The position numbers were made by a program, and so were the translations under genes. 64,000 nt of DNA from NCBI GenBank assembly GCA_027081275.1, contig JALWKV010000152.1, forward strand, positions 6,820 through 70,819. Reading direction: 5' to 3'. This document shows positions 41,310 to 59,710 of the stretch, piece after piece. The stretch is from Gammaproteobacteria bacterium. GTDB lineage: Bacteria; Pseudomonadota; Gammaproteobacteria; UWMA-0217. Within the stretch, counting starts at the first letter, position 1; each line of letters opens with the position of its first letter. Under the pieces are notes generated by a model, which saw nothing but the letters and a program-made list of their open reading frames with translations, ran no database searches and had not been told where the DNA came from.

Positions 41310-43259
<1,950 letters not shown>

Positions 43260-44085: not shown

Positions 44086-45932
44086 ATGCGGTAGCGGGAT
44101 TCCAGCGTCGCCTGCATCGTCTGGATCACCTTGAAGGCGTCCTTCAGATGCTCGCGTTCCAGCCGCGAGATCTCCTTCGGCGACATGAAATTGTCCGGTG
44201 CCTCGTCACGCTGGATCTGCCTTGCCTGATGCTCCAGCCGCAGGATGCCGATGAACTCCAGCGCATCGAGCAGGTTGGCCGCGCCGGATTCGCTCAGCGT
44301 CGGCGTGCCGGCCGCCGCCTGCAGCCGTTCGATGGTGTTGACGGCGGGAATCCCCTCGGACAGCGCGTAGATCCGAGCCAGATCGACCACCGGCGCGATG
44401 CCGTTGTGTTTCAGATCGAGCGTGTCGTTGTGCTTGCCGTCGTGGATCAGCACGAAATCGCGAAAGAAGCCGAGCGGTGGCCGCAGCTTCAGCGCATTGT
44501 GGGTCAGATGGGCGAGGAACAGCGTGCTTTCGGGCGTCTGCGCCAGCATGTTTTCGCGGATCTGTTCCAGCAGCGTCGCCTCGCCGTGGATGGCGCGCAG
44601 GTCGAAGAAGATGCTGGAGTACATCAGCGCCTTCGGCTCCGGTGTATTGATCCAGCTGTTGAAATAGCCCTGCCAGACCGACTGCGTCTGGCGCCAGCGC
44701 GGGTTCTTCGCCATGACGTCGCCGGGGCAGTAGACATAGCCGCATTCGTTCAGCCCGTCGCAAACGAAGTCGGCGACCTGCTCGAACCAGGGCTCGTCGG
44801 CCTTCTCCAGCGCATCCGAGATGATCATGCCGTTGTCCTGATCCGAGTGGGACGTCTGCTCCCGCCGGGCGTGCGAGCCGGCGGCGACCCAGGCGTAGGG
44901 AACCGGCGGCGGTCCGAACTTCTCCTCGGCCAGTTGCAGCAGGCGGCGCGTCAACGCCGAAGTGATCGAGGTGACGACCTTGCCGACGTGATCGGGTGTC
45001 GCGCTCTGGTTGACGAGTTGCACCTGCAGGCGGGGAATGGTGGTGCTCAGCTCCTTCAGCGTGTCGATATCGGCGGCGCGATGGATGGCGCTGGAGAGAT
45101 AGGCGACATTGCGTCCCTCCAGCCGCATCAGATCCGAGATGCTCACCACGCCCTCGACGCGGTTGTCGTCGATGACCGGCAGGTGGTGGATGTGCTTGCG
45201 CGTCATCGTCATCAGCGCGTCGAAGGCATTGGCGTCGCTGCTGGTGGTGACCATTTCGGTGGTCATGATGGTGTCGACCGGGTTGGCCGGGGACTTGCCG
45301 GTGGCGACGCAGCGGCGGGTGATGTCCTTGTCGGTGACGATGCCGCGCGGCGCGTCATTGTCGACGACGATCAGCGACGACACGCTGGCGTCCCGCATCC
45401 GGATCGCCGCTTCGTGGATGCTGCTGCCGGCGTCGACGGTGACGGCCGGTTTCTGCATCACTTCGCCCACCAGCATTGTCGTCAGCCGCGGCGAGGCCGA
45501 GGCCGCCTCCTGGCGCGAGGCCATGGCCTGGTTCAGTCGCTGCGAGGCGGTATTGCGGATGAAGGCGAGCACGCTGGAATCATTGCCGACCGCGGCGTTG
45601 AGCGAGTCGCAATCGACGGTGTAGGCAAGCGTGTCCTCGTCGACGCTGACGCGGAACTTGTCGCCACCGTCGGCGAGGCAGAAGCTGGTGCAGACATCGC
45701 TCTCGCCCAGTTTGCCCAGCAGTGTGCCTTTCCGGGAACGCAGGCTCAGTGCCCCCTTGCGGATGATGTAGAGCCGTTCCTCATCGGCATTGTCGGGTGG
45801 CAGGGCGGAGCCGGCGCGGAAGTAGCGGATCGTGATCTTGTCCAGCAACCGGTCGATGCTGCCGGGTTCAAGGCGGTCGAAGGGGGGAATGGCGGCGATG
45901 AAATCACGGATTTCCTTCAGTTCGATTTCCAT
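44082..45932 (-). CDS. Cyclic-nucleotide-binding / tandem CBS / DUF294 putative nucleotidyltransferase
   Basis: N-terminal cNMP-binding fold, two CBS motifs, then DUF294 and DUF294_C. This is the usual partner of the exonuclease near acs. Confidence 0.8.
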   Translation of the reverse strand: MEIELKEIRDFIAAIPPFDRLEPGSIDRLLDKITIRYFRAGSALPPDNADEERLYIIRKGALSLRSRKGTLLGKLGESDVCTSFCLADGGDKFRVSVDEDTLAYTVDCDSLNAAVGNDSSVLAFIRNTASQRLNQAMASRQEAASASPRLTTMLVGEVMQKPAVTVDAGSSIHEAAIRMRDASVSSLIVVDNDAPRGIVTDKDITRRCVATGKSPANPVDTIMTTEMVTTSSDANAFDALMTMTRKHIHHLPVIDDNRVEGVVSISDLMRLEGRNVAYLSSAIHRAADIDTLKELSTTIPRLQVQLVNQSATPDHVGKVVTSITSALTRRLLQLAEEKFGPPPVPYAWVAAGSHARREQTSHSDQDNGMIISDALEKADEPWFEQVADFVCDGLNECGYVYCPGDVMAKNPRWRQTQSVWQGYFNSWINTPEPKALMYSSIFFDLRAIHGEATLLEQIRENMLAQTPESTLFLAHLTHNALKLRPPLGFFRDFVLIHDGKHNDTLDLKHNGIAPVVDLARIYALSEGIPAVNTIERLQAAAGTPTLSESGAANLLDALEFIGILRLEHQARQIQRDEAPDNFMSPKEISRLEREHLKDAFKVIQTMQATLESRYRM

Positions 45933-46009
45933 CGCGGGCCTCGTCTGGGTGGGATGGGAAGCTTGTCACGCGACGTTAACGCTTCGGCCCGGTCGGATCA
46001 ATGCGTGTC

Positions 46010-46350
46010 CTTGTTGGCGGGTGGTGAACCCGAGGGTTAGCGGACCGGAGCTGATTGGCACCCCAAGAGGCAGCTTTTCCATTCATAGTTACCGATTCTT
46101 CTCCGCGTCCTCCGCGGCTCCGCTGAGCAAGCAAATCCTCGGTTCACACGGAGGCGCGGAGACGCGGAATCCGCACGGTTGTTTACGATACCCTTGTTTT
46201 CTGGATTCCAGGTTAGTGAACCAAAGTCGATTGGCAACCCAAGAGGCAGTTTTTCCATTCATAGTTACCGATCCTTCTCCGCGTCCTCCGCGGTTCCGCT
46301 GAGCAAGCAAATCCTCGGTTCACACGGAGGGGTCGGGACGCGGAAGAGGG
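46010..46350. repeat. Tandem repeat family D (~177-bp units, about 2.5 copies; a degenerate copy lies at ~46905-47030)
   Basis: ttggcaccccaagaggcagcttttccattcatagttaccgattcttctccgcgtcctccgcgg… recurs at 46054 and 46231. Each unit carries a ~14-bp imperfect stem. Confidence 0.5.
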
Positions 46351-46908
46351 GCGGTAGTTATTGACGATACGCTGAACGCCCTCTTTGAAGGTGGCTGCGC
46401 CGAAATTGATGAGTAGACCCACCGGAAGATTCATCAAACGAAGATAAGTGAGCACCTGCTTTGGGTGGACGGCAGTCATTTTTTCCACGGACTTTAATTC
46501 CACGATGATGCGGTTTTCCACCAACAGATCCAGGCGCCACCCTTCTTCAAAACGCATCCCGTCATATTCGAATGCCACGACCTTCTGTCTTTCGACTTTC
46601 AGGCCACGTCTAGCCCGCATTTCTCACCACCCTTCTACTGCGACGTTCCAATGGCACGCCCTGGCTGGCTTTCGCTCGGTCGGAGTGCTCGACATAGTGT
46701 CGGCTATGCCTGCGCGCTCCTCGGTCGCGAAAGCCACCCATGCCGCACCCTTGATCCGTCTCGCTACGGACGGTGGTGAGAAATGCGGGCTAGCCAAATC
46801 CCGGTAGAGTACAGCTTCATAGACAGACTCCAGAAGACCGGGGCCAAGGCCGGCATGCAGTCTGTAAGCCGTATCCACGATCATCCCGGTAATATCATCG
46901 ATTTCCAC
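46213..46908 (-). pseudogene. GxxExxY-family (PD-(D/E)XK-like) gene split by MITE-1 copy 4; the 3' end runs into the D repeats
   Basis: N-terminal piece MEIDDITGMIVDTAYRLHAGLGPGLLESVYEAVLYRDLA and C-terminal piece RRGLKVERQKVVAFEYDGMRFEEGWRLDLLVENRIIVELKSVEKM…LLINFGAATFKEGVQRIVNNY. Removing the 178-bp element and one TA restores a continuous frame …LYRDLARRGLKVERQ…. Confidence 0.7.
46611..46792. mobile_element. MITE-1 copy 4 (full length, opposite orientation), inserted in the GxxExxY gene
   Basis: TA|gcccgcatttctcaccacccttctactgcgacgttccaatgg…cggtggtgagaaatgcgggc|TA. Confidence 0.7.
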
Positions 46909-47034
46909 TATTCAATGTCCTCCGCGTTCTCCGCGTCTCTGCGTGAGTTTCCCCAAGCAAGGTGGCGCCTTCTGCCCCGAACTGTTTGATTATTATCCCG
47001 TGAACCCGAGGGAGGGATTCTCGGTTACAAAGTG

Positions 47035-47058
47035 AAAAGGCTCCCGAAGGAGCCTTTT
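47035..47058. terminator. Bidirectional rho-independent terminator downstream of actP
   Basis: aaaa-ggctcc-cgaa-ggagcc-tttt. Confidence 0.6.
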
Positions 47059-47084
47059 CACACGGTACGGCAATGGATCTTTTG

Positions 47085-48815
47085 TCAGTGATCCGCCGCC
47101 GCGCCAGCACCCGCCGGAACCCGGAAGTTCTCGACCATGCGCTGGATGTGGTCGGGCGCCGGTCCCGTGACTTTCGATACCGCGTAGGCGACGGCAAAGT
47201 TGACGATCGCGCCAACCACGCCGAAGGCCTTGGGATCGATGCCGAGGAACCAGTTCTTCGGCATGCCCATCATGAACTCCGTGCCCTTGATGAACATGAT
47301 GCCGTGGTGCTGGAACACGTACAGCAGCGTGATGCCCATGCCGGCGACCATGCCGGCAACGGCGGCCTTGCTGCCGATGTTCTTGGAGAAGATCCCCATC
47401 ATCAGCGCCGGGAATATCGATGCCGCGGCGAGGCCGAACGCCAGCGCCACCGTTCCCGCCGCGAAGCCGGGCGGATTGAGCCCAAGATAGCCGGCCAGCA
47501 GGATCGACAGCGTCATGACGATGCGACTGGCGAGCAGTTCGCCCCGTTCGCTGATGCCCTTGACGAAGACGCCCTTCATCAGGTCATGCGAGATCGACGA
47601 CGATATCGCCAGCAGCAGTCCGGCCGCGGTCGACAGCGCTGCGGCCAGACCACCGGCGGCCACCAGCGCGATGACCCAGTTGGGCAGGTTGGCGATTTCC
47701 GGGTTGGCCAGCACCATGATGTCGCGGTCGACCTTGACCATCTCGTTCTTCTCCTTGTCGGCGACATACTGGATCTTGCCGTCGCCGTTCTTGTCCTCGA
47801 ACTTCAGCAGGCCGGTTTTCTCCCAGTTCTTGAACCACTGCGGACGCTCGGCGTAGACGAGGTTTTCACCCGGCGCCGGCTCGATGGTGTGGTGCAGGTT
47901 CAGTCGGGCCATGGCGCCGACGGCCGGGGCGACGGTGTAGAGCAGGGCGATGAAGACCAGCGCCCAGCCGGCCGAGGAGCGCGCCGCCTTGACCGAGGGC
48001 ACGGTGAAGAAGCGCATGATGACGTGCGGCAGACCGGCGGTGCCGATCATCAGCGACATCGTGTAGGCGAACATGTTGAGCATGCTGCCGAGCTTGGCCG
48101 TGGTGTACTCCTTGAAGCCGAGATCGGTGACGATCAGGTCCAGCTTGTCGAGCAGATACATGTCGGTGCCGACCATCTTGCTGCCGAGGCCGATCTGCGG
48201 GAACGGGCTGCCGGTCAGCTGCAGCGAGATGAACACCGCGGGAACGGTGTAGGCGAAGATCATCACGCAGTACTGGGCGATCTGGGTGTAGGTGATGCCC
48301 TTCATGCCGCCGAGTACGGCGTAGACCCAGACCACGCCCATGCCAATGAACAGGCCGATGGCGTAGTCCACTTCGAGAAAGCGGCCGAAGGCGACGCCGA
48401 TGCCCTTCATCTGGCCGATGACATAGGTCAGCGAGGCAATGATCAGGCAGACGACGGCCACGATCCGCGCCGTCTGCGAGTAGTAGCGATCGCCGATGAA
48501 CTCCGGCACCGTGAACTTGCCGTGCTTGCGCAGATAGGGCGCCAGCAGCATGGCGAGCAGCACGTAGCCGCCGGTCCATCCCATCAGGAATACCGAGCCG
48601 CCGTAGCCGAGAAAGGCGATCAGACCGGCCATCGAGATGAACGACGCCGCGCTCATCCAGTCGGCGCCGGTGGCCATGCCGTTGAGGATAGGATGCACGC
48701 CCTTGCCGGCGACATAGAACTCGCTAGTCGAGGAAGCGCGGGCCCACCAGGCGATGGCGAAGTAGAGGCCGAACGTGCCGAATACGAATATGTACGTTAG
48801 CGTTTGCAGATCCAC
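47085..48815 (-). CDS. actP: Cation/acetate symporter ActP (SSS family)
   Basis: 576-aa polytopic SSS transporter directly downstream of a yjcH-like gene. Confidence 0.9.
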   Translation of the reverse strand: MDLQTLTYIFVFGTFGLYFAIAWWARASSTSEFYVAGKGVHPILNGMATGADWMSAASFISMAGLIAFLGYGGSVFLMGWTGGYVLLAMLLAPYLRKHGKFTVPEFIGDRYYSQTARIVAVVCLIIASLTYVIGQMKGIGVAFGRFLEVDYAIGLFIGMGVVWVYAVLGGMKGITYTQIAQYCVMIFAYTVPAVFISLQLTGSPFPQIGLGSKMVGTDMYLLDKLDLIVTDLGFKEYTTAKLGSMLNMFAYTMSLMIGTAGLPHVIMRFFTVPSVKAARSSAGWALVFIALLYTVAPAVGAMARLNLHHTIEPAPGENLVYAERPQWFKNWEKTGLLKFEDKNGDGKIQYVADKEKNEMVKVDRDIMVLANPEIANLPNWVIALVAAGGLAAALSTAAGLLLAISSSISHDLMKGVFVKGISERGELLASRIVMTLSILLAGYLGLNPPGFAAGTVALAFGLAAASIFPALMMGIFSKNIGSKAAVAGMVAGMGITLLYVFQHHGIMFIKGTEFMMGMPKNWFLGIDPKAFGVVGAIVNFAVAYAVSKVTGPAPDHIQRMVENFRVPAGAGAAADH

Positions 48816-48826
48816 GTCAGTCTCTC

Positions 48827-49078
48827 CTAATCTTCATGAACATTGTATTTGCGGTCGATCGCATTCATGCGCCAGGCATAGAAGAAGATCAGCACGACAA
48901 AAACGTAGATGGAACCCTGCTGGGCGAACCAGAAGCCGAGCTTGTAGCCTCCAAGGCGGTATTGATTGAGCACGTCCACGAGCAGGATGCCGCAGACAAA
49001 CGAGACGAGGAACCAGATGGTCAGGCAGAAAGCCATCAGGCGGAGGTTCGCACGCCAGTATGAGTTGTTTGGACTCAT
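48827..49078 (-). CDS. yjcH: DUF485 inner-membrane protein (YjcH-like)
   Basis: 83 aa with two TM helices, upstream of actP. Confidence 0.8.
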   Translation of the reverse strand: MSPNNSYWRANLRLMAFCLTIWFLVSFVCGILLVDVLNQYRLGGYKLGFWFAQQGSIYVFVVLIFFYAWRMNAIDRKYNVHED

Positions 49079-49762
49079 CGGTAGTCTCCTAATGTATCGT
49101 TATTGGGACAGACCGTGACACCTGCTGGCAGTGCAGTGGGGCGATGCAGACGGATGGGATGTGGCCGGTTCCGTGATGGCGGGAGGGTTGGTGGAACGCC
49201 CGTCGCAAACACCATCGGCCGGAATCAGACAATCGTCATCGAATCTTCAACTCGCTTGATGTTTGCATGGCAACAGGCTTCTCGGACCTGATTTATCGTT
49301 GTGTGAGGAGGTCGCAAGCGCGAAAGCCTTTGCGGCATCCTCGGGCGGCGGGCGGATCTCCGCCATTTTCCGGCAGCAGTCCCTCGACTCTCCGTGCCCG
49401 CCGTTCGGAGCAATCCGGCTGGGTCGGGTGGCGGCCCTGACGGCGCTCTCGAGTAGTGCCGGCTCATCGCTGCAACCGGCCCGCCGATGTTAGCCAGTTC
49501 ACAAAACCGGAACAATCGGCAATTCCGCATCGTAATAGTGTGTATTCCTCCGGTCAATGATTGATGGATATCGTTTCCCCGTGGATGGCTTCGCTACAGG
49601 CCCCGTGCGAGCGTTCGACCGCCTCGTCCCGTCTCCACGCAGCAGGTTCGGGGGCGTCATTTGCCGTGGTGATACCGCCGCCGTGAGCGGGAACTGGCCA
49701 TCGTCGGTGCCGATAACCTATGCTTTCATAGCAATTACGCCCCATATCCGTTTTTTCCCTGC

Positions 49763-51454
49763 ATGCCCATGATGCTGGAATCCTCCGCGCTCCGACGCCT
49801 GTATCGGTGGCTGCGAACGCCGCTCGAATATCTGCTGTTCGCGCTGCTGCTGGCCTGGCTGAGCAAGCGTTTCTGGCGCGCCGACGGCCTGCCGCCGCTG
49901 TCGTGGCACTGGAGCCCGGAGTTGCCGCTGGCGCTCTATCTCTATTTTCTGCTCCGCAGTTTTCTGCCGCGCGGCCGTTACCGTGGCCTGCTGGCGGCCG
50001 TGCCGGTGGTGCTGATCTATCTTTTTCTCGATGTCTACTACCTGCTGCTCGGTCGCGTCTTTCGCCTCAGCGAGCTGCAGGAGGTGCCGGAGATGATCGA
50101 TGTGCTGCCGTGGTATCAGTCGCTGGGGATCGCGCTGGTGGTGGGACTGCCGCTGCTGCTGGTGGCATCGCGACTGCACTGGCCCGGATGGCGCCGGGCG
50201 GCGGTTGCGCTGGCGCCGCTGCTCTTGCTGGTGGCGGTGATCGCCTGGCGGCCGGGCTGGTTCCTGCGGGGTTTCGATGCCGTGGCGCGGCCGCCGGTGG
50301 TCTGGTCGGACTACTACTCCGTGGGCGCCAACGGGCGCATGACGATGGTGCTCTACCAGACGGCCCGCCGTCGGCAGGCGCTGCAATCGCTGGCCGGATA
50401 TCGTGATGACGCCGCCTATGAGGCCGGTTTCCAGCGGCGGCTGGCGCAGTTGCGGCGGATCGAGGCGCGGCGCAACGTCCATCTGCTGATGCTGGAGAGC
50501 TTCTTCGATCCCAAACGGCTGGAGAATGTCCGCTTCAGCCGCGACCCGCTGCATCCCGACTTTCGCCGTCTGCTGGCCGGCGGCGTCGGCGAATTGTCGC
50601 GCTCGCCGGTCTACGGCGGCTACACGGCGCAGGCCGAGTTCGAGGTGCTCTGCGGCGTGCCGGCGCGGCAGACCTTCGGCACGATCGAGTTCAATCTCTT
50701 CACCGGCGCGCGCATCCACTGCATGCCTGATGCGCTGGCGGCGATCGGCTATCGCACCGTGGCCACGGAGGGGTTCAAGCCGGAGTTCTTCAATGCCCGG
50801 GCGGCGCTGAAGGGCGTCGGATTCGACGAGATCCACTTCCCGCGCGAATACGCGCCGGCCGACAACAGCTACCTCTCCACCGGTGATGTCGAGGTCGAGC
50901 AGTACATGTTCGACGATGTACTGCTGCGGCAGAACCGGGCCTATATCGGCAGCCTGGAAGGGCCGGTGCTGAACTACGTCATGACCATCTACGGCCATCT
51001 TCCGTTCAAGCTGGACGAGACGCTGCGGCCGCGTCTGATCGAAGCCGCCGGCGGGCCGGTCAACGACGATCTGCTGACCATCGCCAACCAGATCTGGTAT
51101 CGCAGCAAGGCCGTTGCCGACCATATCGAGGCGCTGCGCAAGAACGATCCCGACAGCATCATCGTCGTGCTCGGCGACCATCTGCCGCCGATGCCGGAAG
51201 GGAAGGGAAAGTATGACGAGATGGGCTATCTGCCTGGCCATGAGCAGAGCAGCAAGCTGACGCTGCTGGCGGTGTTCGACCGCGGCCGGCAGGTACCGGT
51301 CGAGGCGTTCCACCACTACGATGTGCCGGCGCTGATCTATCGGCTGCTGCTCGACGGCGATTATTGCGAGACCGAGTCCTGCCGCCCGCGTTCGGAGGTG
51401 GAACTGCAACAAGACTACCGCCGCCTGATGGCGCACGCCGTCGGCAAGCCCTGA
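49763..51454 (+). CDS. LTA-synthase / sulfatase-family membrane protein (alkaline-phosphatase superfamily; OpgB-like phosphoglycerol-transferase candidate)
   Basis: N-terminal multi-TM region and a C-terminal sulfatase-like domain. Its TGA stop lies inside the first bases of MITE copy 5. Confidence 0.7.
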   Translation: MPMMLESSALRRLYRWLRTPLEYLLFALLLAWLSKRFWRADGLPPLSWHWSPELPLALYLYFLLRSFLPRGRYRGLLAAVPVVLIYLFLDVYYLLLGRVFRLSELQEVPEMIDVLPWYQSLGIALVVGLPLLLVASRLHWPGWRRAAVALAPLLLLVAVIAWRPGWFLRGFDAVARPPVVWSDYYSVGANGRMTMVLYQTARRRQALQSLAGYRDDAAYEAGFQRRLAQLRRIEARRNVHLLMLESFFDPKRLENVRFSRDPLHPDFRRLLAGGVGELSRSPVYGGYTAQAEFEVLCGVPARQTFGTIEFNLFTGARIHCMPDALAAIGYRTVATEGFKPEFFNARAALKGVGFDEIHFPREYAPADNSYLSTGDVEVEQYMFDDVLLRQNRAYIGSLEGPVLNYVMTIYGHLPFKLDETLRPRLIEAAGGPVNDDLLTIANQIWYRSKAVADHIEALRKNDPDSIIVVLGDHLPPMPEGKGKYDEMGYLPGHEQSSKLTLLAVFDRGRQVPVEAFHHYDVPALIYRLLLDGDYCETESCRPRSEVELQQDYRRLMAHAVGKP

Positions 51455-51625
51455 TCTCACCACAGTTCGTAGCGAGACGGATCAAGGGTGCGGCATGGGT
51501 GGTTTTCGCGACCGAGGAGCGCGCAGGCATAGCCGACACTATGTCGAGCACTCCGACCGAGCGAAAGCCAGCCAGGGCGCGCCATTGGAACGTCGCAGTA
51601 GGAGGGTGGTGAGCAATCCGGGCTA
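51446..51625. mobile_element. MITE-1 copy 5 (left end slightly diverged) wedged between two convergent genes
   Basis: aa|gccctgatctcaccacagttcgtagcgagacgg…ggtgagcaatccgggc|TA. The left end contains the TGA of the + gene. The right TA is part of the TAG of the - gene. Confidence 0.6.
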
Positions 51626-54277
51626 GTGACGGCTCGATGCCGTCGCGCCGATATCGGGCTTGCGATCTTCCGGCTTGCCGAGCGGAGCCATCGCGCCGAT
51701 GAGGCCGGCGGGAAGGCCGGGGAGACTGCTGATCAGGCTCATCGCCACCGATGCTGCGTAGGGGATCGCCTGCACCAGCAGCATCACCACCCAGATGCGG
51801 ATGTCCGGCATCGCGAAGCCGTGGACCATCCACAGGCCCCAGGCGCCGGTCAGCATGGCGATCAGCAGCAGCAGTTCTTCGCGAGCATGGTTGAGCGCCT
51901 GCAGAAAAGCCGAATGGCTGGCCATTTTCGGGGTGCGGAAAAAACCGAGCTTGCTGTTGGTAAAGCCCGTTATCACGGCGCGCGAGATGCCGTGGGCCAG
52001 CGCCAGCCCGGCGATGGCGGCGCCGATGCTCTGGCGCAGGTTGGCGCGCACCTTGAGCTGGTAGAGAAAGGTCAGTTTGATGATTTTGAAGGCGAACAGC
52101 GCCAGCGGAAACAGCGCGAACATCATCAGCGGCGGATCGAAGCGCTCGGGCAGCACGATCATGCCGACGGTCCAGGCCAGCGCGGTGAGGTTGATGATCA
52201 GGCTGAGGCCGTCTGAGACCCAGGGCAGCCAGCCGGCGATGAAATGATAGCGCTGACCGCGCGTCAGTTGCGTCGGCTTCAGTCCCGTCAGTTCGCCGAA
52301 GTGGCGGCGCATGATCATCATCGCGCCATAGGCCCAGCGGAAACGCTGCTTCTTGAAGTCGAGAAAGTTGTCCGGAATCAGTCCGCGACCATAACTGACG
52401 GGAACGTACTGCGCCTTGTAGCCGTGCTCGAACACGCGCAGCCCCAGCTCGGCATCCTCGGTGATGCACCATTCGCTCCAGCCGCCGACCTCCTGCAGCA
52501 CCGACTTGCGGATCATCGTCATCGTGCCGTGCTGGATGATGGCGTTGCGTTCGTTGCGTGTCACCATGCCGATCTGGAAGAAGCCGCGATACTCGGCGTG
52601 GCACATGGCCTTGAACAGGTTTTCGCCGCCGTCGCGATAGTCCTGCGGCGCCTGCATGATCGCCAGTTCCGGATCGTCGGCGAAGGCCGCCGCCAGATCC
52701 CTGAGCCAGTCGCGCTCGACAATGTAGTCGCTGTCGATCACGGCGACGACGCTGGCGCGCGGGTCGGTCTGCGCCAGCGCCACGTTCATGGCGCCGGCCT
52801 TGAAGCCCGCCAGCTTTTCGTAGTGGAAGAAGCGGAAGCGCGGCCCGAGCTTTTCACAGTGGTCGCGCACCGGCTGCCACAGTGCCGGATCGGTGGTGTT
52901 GTTGTCGATCAGCACCACCTCGAAGCGGGGGTAGTCGAGCGCCGCCAGCGCGTTCAGCGTCTGCTTCAGCATCTCGGGCGGCTCGCTGTAGGCCGGGATG
53001 TGCACCGAGACGAAGGGCAGCGCATCGTCGGCGAGCCGTGGCGGCGCGTAGGCGCGGCGCGTCTTGCCGATCCACAGCGCCTCGGCCCACTCGTGGGCTT
53101 CGGCCAGCAGCACCATGATCAGCCCCAGCACCGCCAGCAGCATGACCAGGCCGAGCACGATGCTGCTCCAGGTCAGGTATTGCGCGGTATAGCGGTAGAT
53201 GAGCCAGACCGTGGCCGTGACGGCGGCAAAGGTAACGATGGCGAGAAAGCCGCGACCGACCGAATTGAGGTTGTGGTCGCTGCGCAGCATCGGCCCGAGC
53301 ACCAGCACGGCGAAAACGACCGAGATCGCGGCCAACAGCCGCCACTGTGGAATCTCGACCACCGGCGCGGTGAACGAGAACTTGGGATTGCGCTCAACGT
53401 CGTAGAGCCCCCAGTAGGCGCCGGCGCCGCCTTCCGTTTTGGTCTTCCATGGCTGGTCGAAGGCTTCGATGATGAAGTAGTCCCAGCCCTCGTTCTCCGC
53501 CAGCGCGAGGAAGCGCTTGAGAAACATCGCCTCGTTGCTCAGTGACGGCACCGCGCCCTCGCGCTGACGCCCGTTGCTGGGCCAGCCCACCTCGCCGATG
53601 ACGATCGGCTTGCCCGGATAGGCGGCCTGCAGCTCGCGATAGCGTTGCAGCAGATAGGGCACGGCGGCGTCGGCCGGCAGCCCCTCCCAATAGGGCAGCA
53701 GGTGGACGGCGATGAAATCGACGCGCTGGACCAGCTCGGGATGCTTCAGCCAGATGTGCCACGGTTCCGCCGTGCTCACCGGCATCGGCAGCGAGCGGCG
53801 CACGCGGTCCAGATAGGTCGCCAGCCGGTCGACAGTCAGCGTATTCGTCAGTAGCGTCTCGTTGCCGATGATGACGCGGTCGACCGTGTCCCAGTTCTCG
53901 CGCGCCGCGCCGATCAGCCGCTTCAGCTCCACCGTGTCCTCGGAGACATTGCCGGTCAGATGGGCGCCTAGCGTCACCTTCATGCCGTGCGCCTTGGCCA
54001 GACGCGGGATCTGCACCAGATCGGCCTTGACGGTATAGGTGCGGATGTTCTCGACCTCCCCGTTCAGCAAGGCGAGATCCTCGTCGATCTGCGCGGTGGT
54101 GGGATAGCGGTTCTTCGCCGGGTCATGCTCGGCGCGCAGAGGCGAGAAGGAAACGCCCTGCAGCGTATGCGGCCAGGCGGGATCGTTGTCGCCCGGGTGG
54201 TTGAACGCTGCCCAACCGAGAACCGTCAAGGTCGCAACGATGAGATAGAGCAACAGATTAGATAAGGGGATCTTCAC
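51623..54277 (-). CDS. ndvB: NdvB-like fusion protein: N-terminal GH17-like glycoside hydrolase/transglycosylase plus C-terminal GT2 processive glycosyltransferase (candidate cyclic beta-1,3-glucan synthase). GTG at 54277 or TTG at 54298.
   Basis: N-terminal TM anchor, a GH17-like domain (…VIIGNETLL…IGEVGWPSNG…), multiple TM helices, and GT2 motifs IDSDY (DxD) and QRFRWAYG (QxxRW). This is the same architecture as P. aeruginosa NdvB. Confidence 0.7.
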   Translation of the reverse strand: MKIPLSNLLLYLIVATLTVLGWAAFNHPGDNDPAWPHTLQGVSFSPLRAEHDPAKNRYPTTAQIDEDLALLNGEVENIRTYTVKADLVQIPRLAKAHGMKVTLGAHLTGNVSEDTVELKRLIGAARENWDTVDRVIIGNETLLTNTLTVDRLATYLDRVRRSLPMPVSTAEPWHIWLKHPELVQRVDFIAVHLLPYWEGLPADAAVPYLLQRYRELQAAYPGKPIVIGEVGWPSNGRQREGAVPSLSNEAMFLKRFLALAENEGWDYFIIEAFDQPWKTKTEGGAGAYWGLYDVERNPKFSFTAPVVEIPQWRLLAAISVVFAVLVLGPMLRSDHNLNSVGRGFLAIVTFAAVTATVWLIYRYTAQYLTWSSIVLGLVMLLAVLGLIMVLLAEAHEWAEALWIGKTRRAYAPPRLADDALPFVSVHIPAYSEPPEMLKQTLNALAALDYPRFEVVLIDNNTTDPALWQPVRDHCEKLGPRFRFFHYEKLAGFKAGAMNVALAQTDPRASVVAVIDSDYIVERDWLRDLAAAFADDPELAIMQAPQDYRDGGENLFKAMCHAEYRGFFQIGMVTRNERNAIIQHGTMTMIRKSVLQEVGGWSEWCITEDAELGLRVFEHGYKAQYVPVSYGRGLIPDNFLDFKKQRFRWAYGAMMIMRRHFGELTGLKPTQLTRGQRYHFIAGWLPWVSDGLSLIINLTALAWTVGMIVLPERFDPPLMMFALFPLALFAFKIIKLTFLYQLKVRANLRQSIGAAIAGLALAHGISRAVITGFTNSKLGFFRTPKMASHSAFLQALNHAREELLLLIAMLTGAWGLWMVHGFAMPDIRIWVVMLLVQAIPYAASVAMSLISSLPGLPAGLIGAMAPLGKPEDRKPDIGATASSRH

Positions 54278-55145
54278 GGGTTCCCGATGGCATGCCAATG
54301 AGGAGGGTCGAAGATTCTATCGCGTCCGTGGGATCGAAACGTCGAAGGTTTCACAGCGACCGCTTTGATTTCAGTTGTTTACAACTGAAGGTGTCTCGAG
54401 CCGCTTCCTCGGACGGGATGTCGTGCATTCGACCCGAAAGCCACTGCGGAAAACCGTGAACCATTGTCAGCGCCATCATAACGCATGCGGTTCCGGTGAT
54501 TGAACCCGTCGGATGATACTCGGGAAGGTGGAGAGAAGTGCGGAGGGGTTTTTAAGAGGCCCAAAAATAAAGCTGACGCCGAAGCGCCAGCTCAGGTCCA
54601 GCCCCCACTGGAATACAAGGACCGGGTCAAAACGAACATGTCGTCAATAGGGACGACCGTTTCCGGCAACGCACTCAGCCAGCACTCTGCAACCAACCCC
54701 CGTTGTTACACAATGCTGATACGCCACCGGCCTGACTGATGTCGTCCCGGTGTGTGGATGCCGCCCTGGCGGGAGGCCCCCGTCCGGCCGTTCTTGTTCG
54801 ACCCGGTAAAATGGCAGAAGAACGGATGAACGACCTTCTGCAGCCACGGCATTGATGACCCAACCGCCATGACTGGGGATAATTTAACAAGCGATGACAA
54901 TGGTTACAGTAACCCGTGACAACTAGTCGAAATGTTTCAATAATAGAAGCCGTGTCTACAGCGCTGATGTAACGTGTTGAAAGAACGGTGGATATCCGTT
55001 ACCCGACTAGGGTTCTCCCGGATGGGTGGGATTAGCCCCAATGGGCTAGTTTGCCCATAGGGGTGCTGGTGCTGGACATGTGTGGCCTTATGATATCGCT
55101 GCGGTGCAACGGCGCTGTTCTTGCGGGGTTGCGATTGGGCGGGGG

Positions 55146-55817
55146 ATGACATTGAGATTTCTGGTAGCCGATGATCACGAACTGATACGCGAGGGATTGA
55201 GCGCCCAGTTGCGGACGATCAATCCCGACGCGCAAGTCGTCTCCGCGGCGAGTCTCGACGAGATGTGGGACGAGGTCGAGCGCGAAGGCGCGGTCGACCT
55301 GCTGCTGCTGGATCTCGGCATGCCCGGCGGCGACGGCATGTCGGCGCTGGCGCGGCTCTGCAACCGCTATCCGGAGATGCCGGTCGCCGTTGTCTCCGCC
55401 TCCGAGGATCGCGCCACGATCGAAAAGGCCATCGACCACGGCGCGGCAGGGTACATTCCCAAGTCAATGGCGATGAACGTCATGGTGAACGCCATCCGCC
55501 TCATCCTGTCGGGGGGCGTCTACCTGCCGGAAACGCTGTTGCGCGGCAAGGGCGATGCTCCCACGAAGCCCGATGACGCTTCCCGCGGTGACGAACGGAT
55601 CACGCCCGAGTCGCTGACCCAGCGTCAGATCGACGTGCTCTGCCTGATGTGCGAAGGTCTCTCCAACAAGGAGATCGCCCGTCGGCTCGGCATATCCCCC
55701 CACACAGTCAAGATCCATGTCGCGGCGGTATTGAAAGGGTTGCATGCAGACAACCGAACGCAGGCCACGCGCCTTGCGGACAAGTACGGCCTGTGCTCAG
55801 GGCGCGGCTCGGCATAG
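55146..55817 (+). CDS. NarL/FixJ-family (LuxR-type HTH) response regulator
   Basis: REC domain (…VADDHELIREG…DLGMPGGDG…) with a C-terminal LuxR HTH (…EGLSNKEIARRLGISPHTVKIHV…). Confidence 0.85.
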   Translation: MTLRFLVADDHELIREGLSAQLRTINPDAQVVSAASLDEMWDEVEREGAVDLLLLDLGMPGGDGMSALARLCNRYPEMPVAVVSASEDRATIEKAIDHGAAGYIPKSMAMNVMVNAIRLILSGGVYLPETLLRGKGDAPTKPDDASRGDERITPESLTQRQIDVLCLMCEGLSNKEIARRLGISPHTVKIHVAAVLKGLHADNRTQATRLADKYGLCSGRGSA

Positions 55818-55927
55818 GAGTCTGTCCAGCCGGATTCGCCCCCTGTGGTTTTCGCTTCAAACAACCTGGTCGGACCGCCCTGGGCAACAGGGTGGCGTGA
55901 CGCACCTCCCCACTACGGACAGAAGAA

Positions 55928-58078
55928 ATGATCGAGAACTCCATGGAGAGTCAATCACGGGCAGCGGCGGCAAGCGGTGGCGTGTTTCACCGCAGCTGCT
56001 GCCGCCCGCTCGCCGGCAAGCCACGCATTGGCGCCGCGCTCGGCGCGCTGCTGGCCGGTTTCGGTGGCGTGGTGGATGCCGCTGAAATGGCCACCGACGG
56101 CGAGGAAGCCTTCCTCGCCGACATCCCCATCGTCATGTCGGCCACGAGGCTGCCGCAGCCGCTGCTGGAATCGCCGGTCTCGACCACGGTCATCACCCGC
56201 GAGATGATCGAGGATTCCGGCTTCAACCAGCTTGCCGACGTATTCCGGCTCGTGCCCGGCTTTCAGGTCGCCCACGCCACCGGCGGACACTTCGTCGTCG
56301 CCTACCATGGCCAGGAATTCACGCTGGCCTCCCGGCTCGAGGTGCTGATCGACGGCCGTTCCGTCTACGGCAACATCCTCTCCAGCGTGCAGTGGAACAC
56401 GCTGGGCGTCGCGCTGGAGGACATCGAGCGGATCGAGGTGATCCGCGGGCCGAACGCGCCGGTGTTCGGCGCCAACGCCATGGTGGCCACCATCAATATC
56501 ATCACCCGACAGCCCTACGCCGAGTCGGGAACCTGGATCGACGCCACCGCCGGCTCGATCGGCACCCGCGACCTGCTGCTGCGCCATGCCGCAACCGCCG
56601 GCGCGCTGGATTACCGCCTCAGCCTGGGCTGGAAGCAGAATGACGGCTTCGACGTGGCCCCTGGAATGGGGCCGGATTTCGACGATACGCGTCTTGGCAG
56701 CCTCACCTTTCGCGGCGCCTGGTCGCCCTCCAGCATCGACGATGTCGATATCCAGTTCGGCTACACCGGCGGCGAATCCGCGACGCTGGAGCCGAAGCCC
56801 GATGCATTGCAGACCGACCACGATGGCGATGCCAGATCCCATTACCAGTTCATCCGCTGGACGCGGTCGCGGTCGATGGATGATGAACTCCACCTGCAGT
56901 TCTATCACAACTACAACGACCAGCACGATGGTTCCGAGCTGGGGCCGATTTCGGCGTATATCGGCATATTGCCGGCACAGGTGCCCCTTGCCATCGGCGG
57001 CCGGCCGGATCAGTCGATCGCGGTCTACTACGGCGAGGGGACCTCGGAGCGCTACGATCTCGAATTGCAGCGGCGTCTGCGCATGTCCGATTCCCTGCGG
57101 ATGGTCTGGGGCACGGGATTCCGCCTCGACCGGCTGCGCAGCAAGCCGCATCTGAACCGGGACGGCTTCGTCGACAACCCGTCGGCGCGGATGTTCGGCA
57201 ACGCGGAGTGGTCGCTGAGCGACGACCTCTCCCTCCACCTCGGCGCCATGGTGGAGCACAACGACGTGGCGGGGCCGTTCGGCTCGGCGCGAATCGCCGC
57301 CAACTGGCGCCTCGCGCGCGATCAGGCGGTGCGTGCCAGCATCAGCTCGACCCAGCGCAGTCCGTCGATCATTGAACAGGAGTGGGACTTCCTGCTGCGC
57401 TTCAATGACGGCGCGCCGCTGAACCAGATCTTCTACTCGCCCGGCGATCTCGATCCGGAACGGCTCGTGGCCGTGGAGCTCGGCTACGCCTACATCCCGG
57501 TGGACGGACATCTGCAGTTCGATGCCAAGGTCTTTCGCGAGCGGGCGACCGACATCATCTCCAACTACCGCGATCTCGATTTTCCCGACCCGTTTCTCCA
57601 GGATGGCGTCGAGATCAACATGAATGACGACAGCTATCGCGTCAGCGGCGTGGAGGGCGCGCTGCGCTGGCGGTCGGGGCCACACGACCTGCTCACGTTC
57701 CAGTATTCGCTGACGAAAAGCCACCGTGATCTCTACCGCGGCGGCGATGATGAACCAATACGCATCGAGCACACCGCCACGCCCCGGCGGACATGCAGCC
57801 TGCTGTACACGCACCATTTTCCCGCCGATGTCAGCGCCAGCCTCGGTTACTACTACCGTTCCGCCGTCAAGTGGATCGGCGATGGCGACAAGACGGACGG
57901 CCACAAACGAGTCGATCTGCGGATCGGGAAAACATTCTCGAGCAAGCGGCTGGAGGGCAATATCGACCTGATCGTGCAGAACATCGGGGAGGACTATCAG
58001 GAATACATCAGCGAAAAAGAGAAACGAACGACGTTCAAGACGCGCTATTTCGTCAGGGCCGGCCTCCATTTCCAGTAG
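55928..58078 (+). CDS. TonB-dependent receptor (plug plus 22-strand barrel)
   Basis: Signal-like N-terminus, a plug motif region, and a C-terminal …RAGLHFQ with terminal aromatic residues. Confidence 0.85.
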   Translation: MIENSMESQSRAAAASGGVFHRSCCRPLAGKPRIGAALGALLAGFGGVVDAAEMATDGEEAFLADIPIVMSATRLPQPLLESPVSTTVITREMIEDSGFNQLADVFRLVPGFQVAHATGGHFVVAYHGQEFTLASRLEVLIDGRSVYGNILSSVQWNTLGVALEDIERIEVIRGPNAPVFGANAMVATINIITRQPYAESGTWIDATAGSIGTRDLLLRHAATAGALDYRLSLGWKQNDGFDVAPGMGPDFDDTRLGSLTFRGAWSPSSIDDVDIQFGYTGGESATLEPKPDALQTDHDGDARSHYQFIRWTRSRSMDDELHLQFYHNYNDQHDGSELGPISAYIGILPAQVPLAIGGRPDQSIAVYYGEGTSERYDLELQRRLRMSDSLRMVWGTGFRLDRLRSKPHLNRDGFVDNPSARMFGNAEWSLSDDLSLHLGAMVEHNDVAGPFGSARIAANWRLARDQAVRASISSTQRSPSIIEQEWDFLLRFNDGAPLNQIFYSPGDLDPERLVAVELGYAYIPVDGHLQFDAKVFRERATDIISNYRDLDFPDPFLQDGVEINMNDDSYRVSGVEGALRWRSGPHDLLTFQYSLTKSHRDLYRGGDDEPIRIEHTATPRRTCSLLYTHHFPADVSASLGYYYRSAVKWIGDGDKTDGHKRVDLRIGKTFSSKRLEGNIDLIVQNIGEDYQEYISEKEKRTTFKTRYFVRAGLHFQ

Positions 58079-58250
58079 AGGTTGCCGCAAGAGCGATTAC
58101 TTTGCGACACCCTCGCGCAGCACAAGGATGTGCTGCCAGAAACAACGACGACAAGTCGTTGTTTCTGTGAGAAAAGGAAAAATCGCACTTTTTCCTTTTC
58201 GTGTGTCGCAAAGTCCTGGACGGACTTTTGCGACACCCTCCAGTAAAGGG
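58078..58250. repeat. Repeat family B copy B2 (array of four hairpins), beginning at the TonB-dependent receptor stop codon
   Basis: gaggttgccgcaagagcgattactttgcgacacc…agaaacaacgacgacaagtcgttgtttct…gaaaaggaaaaatcgcactttttccttttc…gtgtcgcaaagtcctggacggacttttgcgacac. Confidence 0.5.
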
Positions 58251-58280
58251 CGGCAACTGGCGCGACTCGAACCGGTCGAC

Positions 58281-58462
58281 TAGCCCGGATTTCTCACCAC
58301 CGTTCGTAGCGAGACGGATCAAGGGTGCGGCATGGGTGGCTTTCGCGACCGAGGAGCGCGCAGGCATAGCCGACACTATGTCGAGCACTCCGACCGAGCG
58401 AAAGCCAGCCAGGGCGTGCCATTGGGACGTCGCAGTAGAAGGGTGGTGAGAAATCCGGGCTA
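58281..58462. mobile_element. MITE-1 copy 6 (full length)
   Basis: TA|gcccggatttctcaccaccgttcgtagcgagacgg…ggtggtgagaaatccgggc|TA. Confidence 0.7.
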
Positions 58463-59709: not shown

Positions 59710-59710
59710 G

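What the first reader, a model, noticed from the sequence alone, without database searches (positions are those of the whole stretch)
49763..54277. NdvB-like GH17-GT2 fusion convergent with an LTA-synthase-family transferase: candidate cyclic beta-1,3-glucan synthesis and substitution locus
The 884-891-aa protein combines an N-terminal GH17-like domain, several TM helices and a processive GT2 core with DxD and QxxRW motifs. P. aeruginosa NdvB has this architecture and makes cyclic beta-(1,3)-glucans. The convergent partner is a membrane-anchored alkaline-phosphatase-superfamily (LTA-synthase/OpgB-like) enzyme. Such enzymes add phosphoglycerol-type substituents to periplasmic glucans. The pair is bounded by a MITE on one side and a low-GC 840-bp non-coding region on the other, which suggests an accessory island.
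Basis: partly seen in the sequence, partly recalled or inferred. Interest (0 to 1): 0.55.

Follow-up and report, generated by a model that had tools for sequence, protein, structure and literature searches.

The report
NdvB-type glucan synthase with partner transferase
Two back-to-back genes encode an ordinary relative of the Pseudomonas enzyme that makes periplasmic beta-1,3-glucan rings and a membrane enzyme that probably decorates those rings with a lipid-derived phosphate group; this makes it a testable candidate for a decorating enzyme nobody has identified.

Summary
The two convergent genes are real. The minus-strand gene (51623-54277, 884 aa) is a full-length orthologue of P. aeruginosa NdvB/PA1163: 51% identity over 867 aa, a periplasmic GH17 domain with both catalytic glutamates, a GT2 core with all processive motifs and no PilZ domain. 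The plus-strand gene (49763-51454, 563 aa) is a multi-pass membrane enzyme of the LTA-synthase family. Its catalytic Thr and metal ligands are intact. Its nearest solved relatives are the phosphoglycerol transferases GacH and LtaS, and it is not an OpgB orthologue. NdvB is the only neighbour of this family that recurs across lineages. It was adjacent in 14 of 80 species genomes, in four different gene orientations, so a functional link is likely but not obligate. Two side claims fail. The MITE-like repeat lies between the two genes, as a recent 168-bp insertion, not beside them. There is also no sign of an accessory island. The "non-coding" 868 bp upstream of ndvB holds a conserved, structured RNA candidate of about 370 nt with no Rfam match. 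Overall this is a new member of a known kind. It is of moderate interest as a candidate for the unidentified substituent transferase of NdvB glucans.

The parts
49763..51454 (+). Gene for a 563-aa LTA-synthase-family (alkaline-phosphatase superfamily) membrane transferase. It has N-terminal TM helices (about aa 6-162) and an extracytoplasmic catalytic domain (aa 236-563, nt 50468-51451). Predicted active site: E245, T288, H412, D472, H473.
   Evidence: ORF and translation. Pfam Sulfatase E 6e-17. Best PDB sequence hits are GacH at 3e-7, then LtaS. AF2 model pLDDT 89, with Foldseek top hits GacH, LtaP and LtaS. Active-site residues are invariant or nearly so in 28 homologues.
51455..51622 (.). 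168-bp palindromic MITE-like repeat inserted between the two stop codons. It is absent at this junction in a 96-99% identical metagenome contig.
   Evidence: Copies at 58292-58459, 46614-46781 (-) and 37950-38117, plus two partial copies. DNA hairpin -49 kcal/mol, z -5.2. The empty site in L091 has only 4 bp between the stops.
51623..54277 (-). Gene for an 884-aa NdvB orthologue. Order of parts: signal-anchor TM, periplasmic GH17, 3 TM helices, cytoplasmic GT2, C-terminal TM channel region.
   Evidence: 51% identity over 867 aa to P. aeruginosa PAO1 NdvB. 38% over 829 aa to Bradyrhizobium sp. BTAi1 NdvB-like. More than 7392 homologues with the same architecture. Hydropathy topology.
53369..54115 (-). 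GH17 beta-1,3-glucanosyltransferase-like domain (aa 55-303). Acid/base E140 lies in IGNETL and nucleophile E229 in EVGWPS.
   Evidence: PDB 4wtp RmBgt17A, E 2e-26, with both motifs aligned. Pfam PF00332. Motif positions. Motif definitions from PMC10237404 Table 3.
52151..53011 (-). GT2 processive synthase core (aa 423-709). Motifs: DNN 458-460, GFKAG 491-495, DSD 515-517, TED 606-608, QRFRW 644-648. A gating-loop-like FFRTPK lies at 779-784. There is no PilZ domain.
   Evidence: Pfam GT2 families at E 1e-24 to 1e-29. BcsA structures at E 3e-24. Motif positions.
54560..54926 (-). Conserved structured RNA candidate of about 370 nt, co-oriented with ndvB. It ends in an intrinsic-terminator hairpin (54570-54593) plus a T-run, about 290 nt upstream of the ndvB start. 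Whether it belongs to the module is inferred from synteny only.
   Evidence: 71-93% conserved in L091, L008, L009/L088 and L089, always upstream of ndvB. No conserved ORF. 108 pairs, 15 of them compensatory. 94% paired against 30-42% in slid controls. Fold z -4.0. Terminator. No Rfam hit at E<=1.
54370..54389 (.). Perfect palindrome TTCAGTTGT-TT-ACAACTGAA about 93 nt upstream of the ndvB start codon, a possible operator. Its core TCAGTTGTTTACA is conserved in L008 and L009.
   Evidence: Sequence. Alignment. Not tested further.

Best explanation
This is a two-gene module for making and decorating periplasmic beta-1,3-glucan. The NdvB orthologue would polymerise UDP-glucose into beta-1,3-glucan at its cytoplasmic GT2 site and thread the chain through its own TM channel. 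Its periplasmic GH17 domain would then cut the chain and transglycosylate it into rings, possibly branched ones. The convergent LtaS-family enzyme, anchored by about 5 TM helices with its catalytic domain in the periplasm, would take a phospho-headgroup from a membrane phospholipid. The most likely headgroup is sn-glycerol-1-phosphate from phosphatidylglycerol, carried through a covalent Thr288 intermediate on a metal site formed by E245, D472 and H473. The enzyme would transfer it to glucose hydroxyls of the glucan, giving the anionic glucans known from P. aeruginosa. Shown here: domain architectures, catalytic residues, orthology to PA1163, structural kinship to GacH/LtaS, and recurrent gene adjacency. 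Inferred: the cyclic product, the donor lipid, the substituent, and that the glucan is the acceptor.
For: NdvB side:
- 51% full-length identity to PA1163.
- GH17 catalytic Glu motifs and all GT2 motifs present, and no PilZ.
- Hydropathy puts GH17 outside the membrane and GT2 inside.

Transferase side:
- GacH and LtaS are the top hits by sequence and by fold.
- E245, T288, H412, D472 and H473 align to GacH E488, T530, H650, D711 and H712. They are invariant or at least 90% conserved in the family.

Coupling:
- NdvB is adjacent (<500 bp) in 14 of 80 species genomes, and in 10 of the 49 with enough flank.
- It is also adjacent in Magnetococcales L003/L004 and in L090 and L091.
- Convergent, divergent and both co-directional orders all occur.
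- NdvB is the only neighbour shared across lineages.
- A second LtaS-family subfamily also sits near NdvB.

Literature:
- P. aeruginosa ndvB glucans are highly glycerol-phosphorylated.
- A membrane MdoB-like enzyme has been proposed but not identified, with a single adjacency example known (PMC10237404).
Against: - In 66 of 80 genome loci, including all Desulfobulbales and Desulfuromonadales, no ndvB lies within 10 kb.
- Close relatives carry either gene alone at the syntenic site (L007 and L089).
- The two genes are convergent, so they are not co-transcribed.
- No product chemistry is available.
- The substituent cannot be read from sequence. pEtN transferases (MCR-1, BcsG) share the fold at lower scores, and Bradyrhizobium glucans carry phosphocholine (own knowledge).
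- Whether genomes with the transferase but no adjacent ndvB carry ndvB elsewhere could not be tested.
Confidence: 0.58

Rival explanations
1. NdvB makes the glucan as described, but the LtaS-family neighbour works on a different acceptor such as lipid A/LPS core, another envelope glycan or a lipid. On this reading the adjacency reflects shared envelope-related genomic neighbourhoods and not a shared pathway.
For: Most family members are not next to ndvB. In Desulfobulbaceae the gene keeps a different lineage-specific neighbourhood of ACT-domain and UPF0210-like genes. L007 keeps the transferase without ndvB. The superfamily includes lipid A and cellulose pEtN transferases.
Against: NdvB is the only neighbour recurring across distant lineages, and it does so in four different orientations. 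That pattern is hard to get without selection for proximity. A second subfamily shows the same tendency. EptA/MCR-type enzymes score far below GacH and LtaS.
Confidence: 0.22
2. The pair is coupled, but the substituent is not phosphoglycerol. It could be phosphoethanolamine from PE, as with OpgE and BcsG, or another headgroup.
For: The alkaline-phosphatase fold is shared by pEtN transferases (MCR-1, ICR and BcsG). Substituents on periplasmic glucans differ between bacteria (own knowledge: phosphocholine in Bradyrhizobium, pEtN and succinate in E. coli).
Against: All top sequence and fold matches are GroP-transferring enzymes (GacH, LtaS, LtaP), and the GroP-site His (H412) is conserved. The nearest characterised NdvB product carries phosphoglycerol (PMC10237404 citing Sadovskaya 2010).
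Confidence: 0.15
3. The synthase makes a linear or branched beta-1,3-glucan exopolysaccharide (curdlan- or laminarin-like) and not periplasmic cyclic glucans.
For: GH17 domains of this type act as glucanosyltransferases that can elongate or branch (RmBgt17A is the best PDB hit). Cyclisation has not been shown for any member by reconstitution (PMC10237404 says it needs experimental confirmation).
Against: There is 51% full-length identity to PA1163, whose mutants lose cyclic beta-1,3-glucans (literature summarised in PMC10237404). No outer-membrane export genes lie next to it in the window.
Confidence: 0.12

Closest known systems
Pseudomonas aeruginosa NdvB (PA1163), the 'Orphan' GH17-GT2 cyclic beta-1,3-glucan synthase family
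   Same: Same length class (884 vs about 870 aa) and the same order of signal anchor, GH17, 3 TM, GT2 and TM channel. 51% identity end to end. Identical motif set (VGNE-type, EVGWPS, DNN, DSD, TED, QRFRW, FFRTPK). No PilZ.
   Different: In pseudomonads ndvB sits next to dapE and no transferase gene is adjacent (PMC10237404). Here the gene is convergent with an LtaS-family gene and preceded by a conserved structured RNA candidate.
Desulfofustis glycolicus DSM 9705 orphan(ndvB)-MdoB-homologue pair (noted in PMC10237404)
   Same: An NdvB-type gene lies immediately next to a sulfatase/MdoB-like membrane protein gene. The authors flagged it as a candidate substitution enzyme.
   Different: It was reported as the only known example and as co-directional. 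Here the pair is convergent, and the adjacency recurs in at least 17 further loci from Gamma- and Betaproteobacteria, Magnetococcales and Nitrospinota. Whether the D. glycolicus protein belongs to the same subfamily was not tested.
E. coli OpgB (MdoB) phosphoglycerol transferase I, and S. meliloti CgmB (own knowledge)
   Same: These are membrane-anchored alkaline-phosphatase-superfamily enzymes that move phosphoglycerol from phosphatidylglycerol onto periplasmic glucans. The window protein is remotely homologous over the catalytic domain (hhalign prob 92%, E 7.5e-7).
   Different: Only 22% identity over about 210-280 aa. The window protein is 563 aa against 763 aa and lacks the OpgB C-terminal region. 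No NCBIfam OpgB hit. OpgB acts on linear beta-1,2/1,6 OPGs made by OpgH, not on NdvB products.
GacH (S. pyogenes) and LtaS/LtaP (Staphylococcus, Listeria) glycerol-phosphate transferases
   Same: Closest solved structures by sequence and by fold. The Thr nucleophile, the Mn-site Glu/Asp/His and the GroP-site His are conserved. Architecture is a multi-TM anchor plus an extracellular domain.
   Different: About 18% identity. Those are Gram-positive enzymes acting on rhamnose-GlcNAc wall polysaccharide or building polyGroP chains. The window enzyme is from a Gram-negative organism, and its N-terminal TM region is conserved only within its own small family (290 representative clusters).
BcsA-BcsG (phosphoethanolamine cellulose)
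   Same: This system follows the same logic: a processive GT2 synthase paired with an inner-membrane alkaline-phosphatase-superfamily enzyme that decorates the emerging glucan with a phospholipid headgroup. BcsG is a fold match (function from own knowledge).
   Different: BcsG transfers pEtN and scores much lower than GacH and LtaS. BcsA has PilZ and makes beta-1,4 chains, and the bcs genes form operons.
Bradyrhizobium NdvB/NdvC cyclic beta-1,3;1,6-glucan synthesis
   Same: A GH17-GT2 NdvB-like protein with the same architecture. 38% identity over 829 aa to the BTAi1 protein A5EJ90.
   Different: It is more distant than the Pseudomonas enzyme. Bradyrhizobium uses extra genes (ndvC, ndvD) and phosphocholine substituents (own knowledge), and no ndvC/ndvD-like genes were seen here.

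Membership tests
NdvB/PA1163-type GH17-GT2 glucan synthase | Full-length similarity to a genetically characterised member | tested here: met
   51% identity and 68% positives over 867 aa to PAO1 NdvB. That sequence was machine-read from S1 File of PMC10237404, so small OCR errors are possible.
NdvB/PA1163-type GH17-GT2 glucan synthase | N-terminal GH17 domain with acid/base Glu (VG[SN]E) and nucleophile Glu (E.GWP[ST]) | tested here: met
   IGNE140TL and E229VGWPS align to the RmBgt17A motifs. 4wtp E 2e-26.
NdvB/PA1163-type GH17-GT2 glucan synthase | Processive GT2 core with D, DxD, TED and Q(Q/R)xRW, and no PilZ domain | tested here: met
   DNN 458, DSD 515, TED 606 and QRFRW 644. Pfam lists no PilZ.
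NdvB/PA1163-type GH17-GT2 glucan synthase | Topology placing GH17 in the periplasm and GT2 in the cytoplasm | tested here: met
   Hydropathy gives TM 3-21, GH17, three TM helices at 314-391, GT2, then at least 4 TM helices. This is a simple hydropathy prediction only.
NdvB/PA1163-type GH17-GT2 glucan synthase | Product is a cyclic beta-1,3-glucan | not testable with these tools
   Needs glucan isolation with MS and NMR.
LTA-synthase / GacH-type glycerol-phosphate transferases (alkaline-phosphatase superfamily) | Multi-TM N-terminus plus extracytoplasmic sulfatase-fold domain | tested here: met
   AF2 model (pLDDT 89) has helices 6-162 followed by an alpha/beta domain at 236-563. Pfam PF00884.
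LTA-synthase / GacH-type glycerol-phosphate transferases (alkaline-phosphatase superfamily) | Catalytic Thr nucleophile and Glu/Asp/His metal ligands | tested here: met
   E245, T288, D472 and H473, plus H412, align to GacH E488, T530, D711, H712 and H650. They are invariant or at least 90% conserved in 28 homologues. The residue roles come from my own knowledge of the GacH and LtaS papers.
LTA-synthase / GacH-type glycerol-phosphate transferases (alkaline-phosphatase superfamily) | Closest structural neighbours are GroP transferases, not sulfatases or pEtN transferases | tested here: met
   Foldseek ranks 1-13 are GacH, LtaP and LtaS (E 2e-13 to 2e-9). MCR-1 follows at 1.5e-8, sulfatases at about 1e-6 and BcsG at about 6e-5.
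LTA-synthase / GacH-type glycerol-phosphate transferases (alkaline-phosphatase superfamily) | Uses phosphatidylglycerol as donor and transfers sn-Gro-1-P | not testable with these tools
   Requires an enzyme assay.
OpgB (MdoB) phosphoglycerol transferase I orthologue | Matches the OpgB equivalog model, or shows full-length similarity to E. coli OpgB including the C-terminal region | tested here: not met
   No NCBIfam OpgB hit at E<=0.01. BLASTP gives 22% over 210 aa, E 8e-4. The profile match covers only OpgB residues 163-457 of 763.
BcsA cellulose synthase | Reaches the CelA/BcsA model cutoff and has a PilZ domain | tested here: not met
   TIGR03030 scores 132 bits against a cutoff of 699, and NF008558 scores 89 against 992. 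No PilZ.
MITE (for the 168-bp repeat) | Short non-coding element with terminal inverted repeats, several copies, and an empty site in a relative | tested here: met
   Four full and two partial copies in 64 kb. TIR is about CTAGCCCGGATTTCTCACCAC. The empty site is in L091. The target-site duplication is unclear, because the left end is truncated at this copy.
Genomic (accessory) island | Atypical composition, mobility genes or tRNA at the borders, and absence from syntenic relatives | tested here: not met
   Gene GC is 0.63-0.69, like the neighbours. No tRNA. The left flank is syntenic in L007, L008, L009, L055 and L091, and the right flank in L089 and L091.

The most novel reading that the evidence does not exclude
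The roughly 370-nt conserved element directly upstream of ndvB (54560-54926, - strand) would be a previously undescribed structured RNA. It could be a riboswitch-like leader with its own terminator or a dedicated sRNA, and it would control NdvB glucan synthesis. The convergent LtaS-family gene would then encode the long-missing substituent transferase of NdvB-type glucans. Together they would form a three-part make, decorate and regulate module.
Probability: 0.2. Interest if true: 0.65.

Novelty: new member of a known kind. Interest (0 to 1): 0.4.

Why it matters
NdvB glucans of P. aeruginosa bind aminoglycosides and contribute to biofilm tolerance, and their anionic character comes from phosphoglycerol substituents. 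The enzyme that adds those substituents has not been identified. The only published lead is a single gene adjacency in Desulfofustis (PMC10237404).

This window and its relatives show that a small, distinct LtaS-family clade, plus a second related clade, repeatedly sits beside NdvB genes in unrelated lineages. That gives a concrete candidate family to test by deletion or co-expression.

The work also corrects the picture of the locus. It is core syntenic DNA with a recent MITE insertion, not an island. It further flags an unannotated structured RNA next to ndvB.

Tried and rejected
- **MITE in the flank.** I looked for a MITE or inverted repeat in 49079-49762. There is none, and no second copy in the window.
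- **Small genes in the non-coding region.** I looked for a conserved small ORF in 54278-55145. Reading frames are not conserved between relatives, so a small protein gene is rejected.
- **Rfam.** No hit at gathering thresholds for the whole window, and none at E<=1 for 54250-55100.
- **More RNA homologues.** A metagenome pattern scan with a 23-nt invariant block returned only the contig already held (L088 = L009). nhmmer on all held loci found no extra copies. A covariance model of the whole RNA was not built, because the alignment has more than 400 columns and calibration would exceed the tool's time limit.
- **L005.** The 871-aa neighbour of the transferase is not NdvB.
- **L090.** The 107-aa gene upstream of the transferase has no counterpart in the window.
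- **Recurrent neighbours.** Clustering the neighbours of the 83 transferase loci gave, apart from NdvB, only antisense shadow ORFs and lineage-restricted synteny blocks.
- **OpgB orthology.** Rejected.
- **Cellulose-synthase identity.** Rejected.
- **Island hypothesis.** Rejected.
- **Not possible here.** Genome-wide co-occurrence of the transferase with non-adjacent ndvB genes, and comparison with P. aeruginosa PA1115 and PA1689 or with S. meliloti CgmB, for which no sequences were available.

Full report
**1. What is at the coordinates**

Two long ORFs face each other.
- The + strand ORF is 49763-51454 and encodes 563 aa.
- The - strand ORF is 51623-54298 and encodes 891 aa from a TTG.
- The 98%-identical protein P0001 (884 aa) and the L008 orthologue both begin at the position of GTG 54277. 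The finding's end coordinate is therefore the likely true start.
- The window has no tRNA and no Rfam match at gathering scores.

**2. The synthase**

Domains and motifs:
- Pfam finds GT2 families (E 1e-24 to 1e-29) and a weak C-terminal piece of GH17.
- Against solved structures, residues 62-310 (891-aa numbering) match the fungal GH17 beta-1,3-glucanosyltransferase RmBgt17A at E 2e-26. Both catalytic motifs align: IGNE-T to VGSE-V, and GEVGWPS to SETGWPS.
- Residues about 412-663 match BcsA at E 3e-24.
- In 884-aa numbering the motifs are E140 (acid/base), E229 (nucleophile), DNN 458, GFKAG 491, DSD 515, QAPQ 542, IQHGT 581, TED 606, QRFRW 644 and FFRTPK 779.
- This is the motif set tabulated for the Pseudomonas 'Orphan'/NdvB family in PMC10237404.

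Topology and family:
- Hydropathy gives a signal-anchor helix, the GH17 domain, three TM helices, the GT2 domain and then at least four TM helices. That places GH17 in the periplasm and GT2 in the cytoplasm.
- The protein is 51% identical over 867 aa to P. aeruginosa PAO1 NdvB. That sequence was taken from the machine-read S1 File of PMC10237404.
- It is 38% identical over 829 aa to the Bradyrhizobium sp. BTAi1 NdvB-like protein.
- Cellulose-synthase models score far below their cutoffs and there is no PilZ domain.
- The family is very large. More than 7392 proteins were found at E<=1e-10, and the best 120 listed all carry the GT2 domains, most with a GH17 hit as well.
- The gene is therefore an ordinary NdvB orthologue.

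**3. The partner**

- It has a Pfam Sulfatase domain (aa 237-486, E 6e-17).
- The only NCBIfam hit is a weak one to LtaS, and there is none to OpgB.
- The best solved relatives by sequence are the phosphoglycerol transferase GacH (E 3e-7) and then LtaS.
- An AlphaFold model built on 28 homologues is confident (pLDDT 89, pTM 0.84). It shows long N-terminal helices (6-162) followed by an alpha/beta domain.
- Foldseek against the PDB ranks GacH, LtaP and LtaS first (E 2e-13 to 2e-9). MCR-1, sulfatases and BcsG follow well behind.
- In the GacH alignment E245, T288, H412, D472 and H473 fall on E488, T530, H650, D711 and H712. I know these from the GacH and LtaS literature as the metal ligands, the Thr nucleophile and a GroP-site His.
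- These residues are invariant or at least 90% conserved in the family alignment.
- E. coli OpgB is only a remote relative. BLASTP gives 22% identity over about 210 aa, and hhalign gives probability 92% over OpgB residues 163-457 of 763.
- The family is small and distinct. It has 290 representative clusters at E<=1e-30 among 1.84 billion, and the TM region is conserved along with the catalytic domain.

**4. Is the pairing meaningful?**

I scanned one genome per species with the family profile. 304 genomes carry a relative, and the best 80 loci were kept with up to 10 kb of flank.

An NdvB gene lies within 500 bp in 14 of the 80, and in 10 of the 49 loci with at least 3.5 kb on both sides. The arrangements are:

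| Arrangement | Loci |
|---|---|
| Convergent | L008, L009, L010, L011, L014, L015 |
| Divergent | L024, L029, L056, L076 |
| ndvB then transferase, same strand | L074, L081, L084 |
| Transferase then ndvB, same strand | L045 |

- These loci are labelled Thiotrichales, Chromatiales, other Gammaproteobacteria, Thiobacillus and Nitrospinota.
- Two Magnetococcales MAGs have the genes 8 bp apart on one strand.
- Metagenome contigs L090 and L091 have the convergent pair.
- When the neighbours of all 83 loci were clustered, NdvB was the only real gene shared across lineages. The other recurrent clusters were antisense shadow ORFs or blocks confined to one Desulfobulbaceae group.

A second, larger LtaS-family subfamily of about 600-660 aa is 35% identical to ours in the catalytic domain.
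- It also lies near NdvB in L093 (a CIA30 gene between) and L095 (ftsH between).
- It does not lie near NdvB in L094 or L096.
- It shares four contig lengths with the NdvB hit list.

Evidence against an obligate link:
- 66 of the 80 loci, including all Desulfobulbales and Desulfuromonadales, have no ndvB within reach.
- Among close relatives, L007 keeps the transferase in the same left-hand synteny but is followed by phosphoesterase and HAD genes.
- L089 keeps ndvB in the same right-hand synteny but is followed by a nitroreductase gene.

The link is therefore recurrent and orientation-independent, which argues for function. It is also facultative.

**5. Literature**

- PMC10237404 (Spiers et al. 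2023) proposes that the GT2 domain makes beta-1,3-glucan and that the GH17 domain cuts and cyclises it.
- It suggests an unidentified MdoB-like membrane enzyme adds the substituent.
- It lists only distant candidates in pseudomonads (PA1115, PA1689 and others).
- I found no paper in the library that identifies the transferase.

**6.

The repeat:
- The 168 bp between the two stop codons (51455-51622) is a repeat.
- Full copies lie at 58292-58459 (96% identical), 46614-46781 on the other strand (96%) and 37950-38117 (89%). There are two partial copies.
- It is an almost perfect long hairpin (DNA fold -49 kcal/mol, z -5.2) with terminal inverted repeats of about CTAGCCCGGATTTCTCACCAC.
- In contig L091, which is 96-99% identical, the two stop codons are 4 bp apart (TGA-ATCA-TTA). 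The element is therefore a recent insertion here, and it changes the ndvB stop codon from TAA to TAG.
- In L008 and L009 the gap is about 15 bp.
It is partly conserved intergenic DNA.

Synteny:
- The left flank is an acetate-use cluster of acs, a DUF294/CBS gene, DUF4212 and an SSF permease. It is syntenic in L007, L008, L009, L055 and L091.
- The right flank holds a LuxR-type response regulator, a TonB receptor, an ABC-type binding protein and a hybrid histidine kinase. It is syntenic in L089 and L091.
- Gene GC matches the neighbours, and the lower GC of the spacer is the same as in other intergenic stretches.
- There is no evidence for an island.

**7. The 'non-coding' 868 bp**

- Positions 54560-54926 are 71-93% conserved in L091, L008, L009 (= L088) and L089.
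- The element always lies upstream of ndvB and is co-oriented with it. The gene beyond it differs between loci: a response regulator in some and an Omp85-family gene in others. In L089 the transferase is absent.
- No reading frame is conserved.
- The element ends in a G+C-rich hairpin followed by a T-run on the - strand (54593-54570).
- RNAalifold predicts 108 pairs in 12 helices, including a long-range closing helix. 15 pairs show double compensatory changes among only five sequences.
- 94% of cells are paired, against 30-42% when partners are slid. No shuffle out of 500 reached the observed covariation score. The caveat is that the structure was derived from this same alignment.
- Many G-U pairs fix the - strand as the transcribed one.
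- The single sequence folds with z -4.0.
- Rfam has nothing, even at E<=1.
- The element is absent from the more distant L090, where the intergenic gap is 150 nt.
- It is a credible but narrowly distributed new structured RNA. Whether it is a leader of ndvB or a separate sRNA is open.
- A perfect palindrome at 54370-54389, 93 nt upstream of the ndvB start, may be an operator.

**8. Verdict**

- The partner should be described as an LtaS/GacH-like enzyme of an uncharacterised clade, not as OpgB-like.
- The substituent, probably phosphoglycerol, is inferred and not shown.
- The MITE and island statements are incorrect as written.
- The locus is a new member of a known kind. Its value is as a candidate for the unidentified transferase of NdvB glucans. 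The unannotated RNA next to ndvB is the most novel thing nearby.

Noticed in passing
window 54560-54926 (- strand): Conserved structured RNA candidate of about 370 nt with its own intrinsic terminator, always upstream of ndvB in close relatives (L091, L008, L009/L088, L089). It has no conserved ORF and no Rfam match. 15 compensatory pairs appear among 5 sequences.
   Followed up: partly
window 51455-51622; copies at 58292-58459, 46614-46781 (-) and 37950-38117; partial copies at 20640-20694 and 11985-12063: 168-bp palindromic MITE-like repeat family with TIR of about CTAGCCCGGATTTCTCACCAC. The copy between the two genes is absent from the 96-99% identical contig L091, so the insertion is recent. 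It could act as a bidirectional terminator.
   Followed up: yes
window 45937-47035: A segment of about 1.1 kb carrying a truncated PD-(D/E)XK_3 nuclease-family ORF (46213-46620, -) and a MITE copy. It is an insertion relative to L007, L008 and L009, where the DUF294/CBS gene abuts the SSF permease gene.
   Followed up: no
window 54370-54389: Perfect palindrome TTCAGTTGT-TT-ACAACTGAA 93 nt upstream of the ndvB start. Its core is conserved in L008 and L009. It is a possible regulator binding site.
   Followed up: no
L093 7317-9194 (-); L095 7001-8839: A second, larger LtaS-family subfamily of about 600-660 aa, with more than 1100 homologues including Thauera and Rhodocyclaceae. It also lies near NdvB genes, separated by a CIA30-domain gene (L093) or ftsH (L095), but not in L094 or L096.
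   Followed up: partly
L007 (whole locus) and L089 (whole locus): Close relatives split the pair. L007 keeps the transferase with the acetate-cluster synteny but has no ndvB. L089 keeps ndvB, the RNA, the response regulator and the TonB receptor synteny but has no transferase. The window arrangement joins the two syntenic blocks exactly at the gene pair.
   Followed up: partly
window 55146-62410 (+): A LuxR-type response regulator (likely start ATG 55146, not GTG 55080), a TonB-dependent receptor, an ABC-type substrate-binding protein and a hybrid histidine kinase (HAMP-HisKA-HATPase-REC-Hpt) lie divergent from ndvB. They are conserved with it in L089 and L091. A regulatory link to ndvB is possible but untested.
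   Followed up: no
window 41310-49078 (-): Acetate-utilisation cluster of acetyl-CoA synthetase, a DUF294/CBS nucleotidyltransferase, DUF4212 and an SSF (ActP-like) permease. It lies immediately upstream of, and divergent from, the transferase gene.
   Followed up: no
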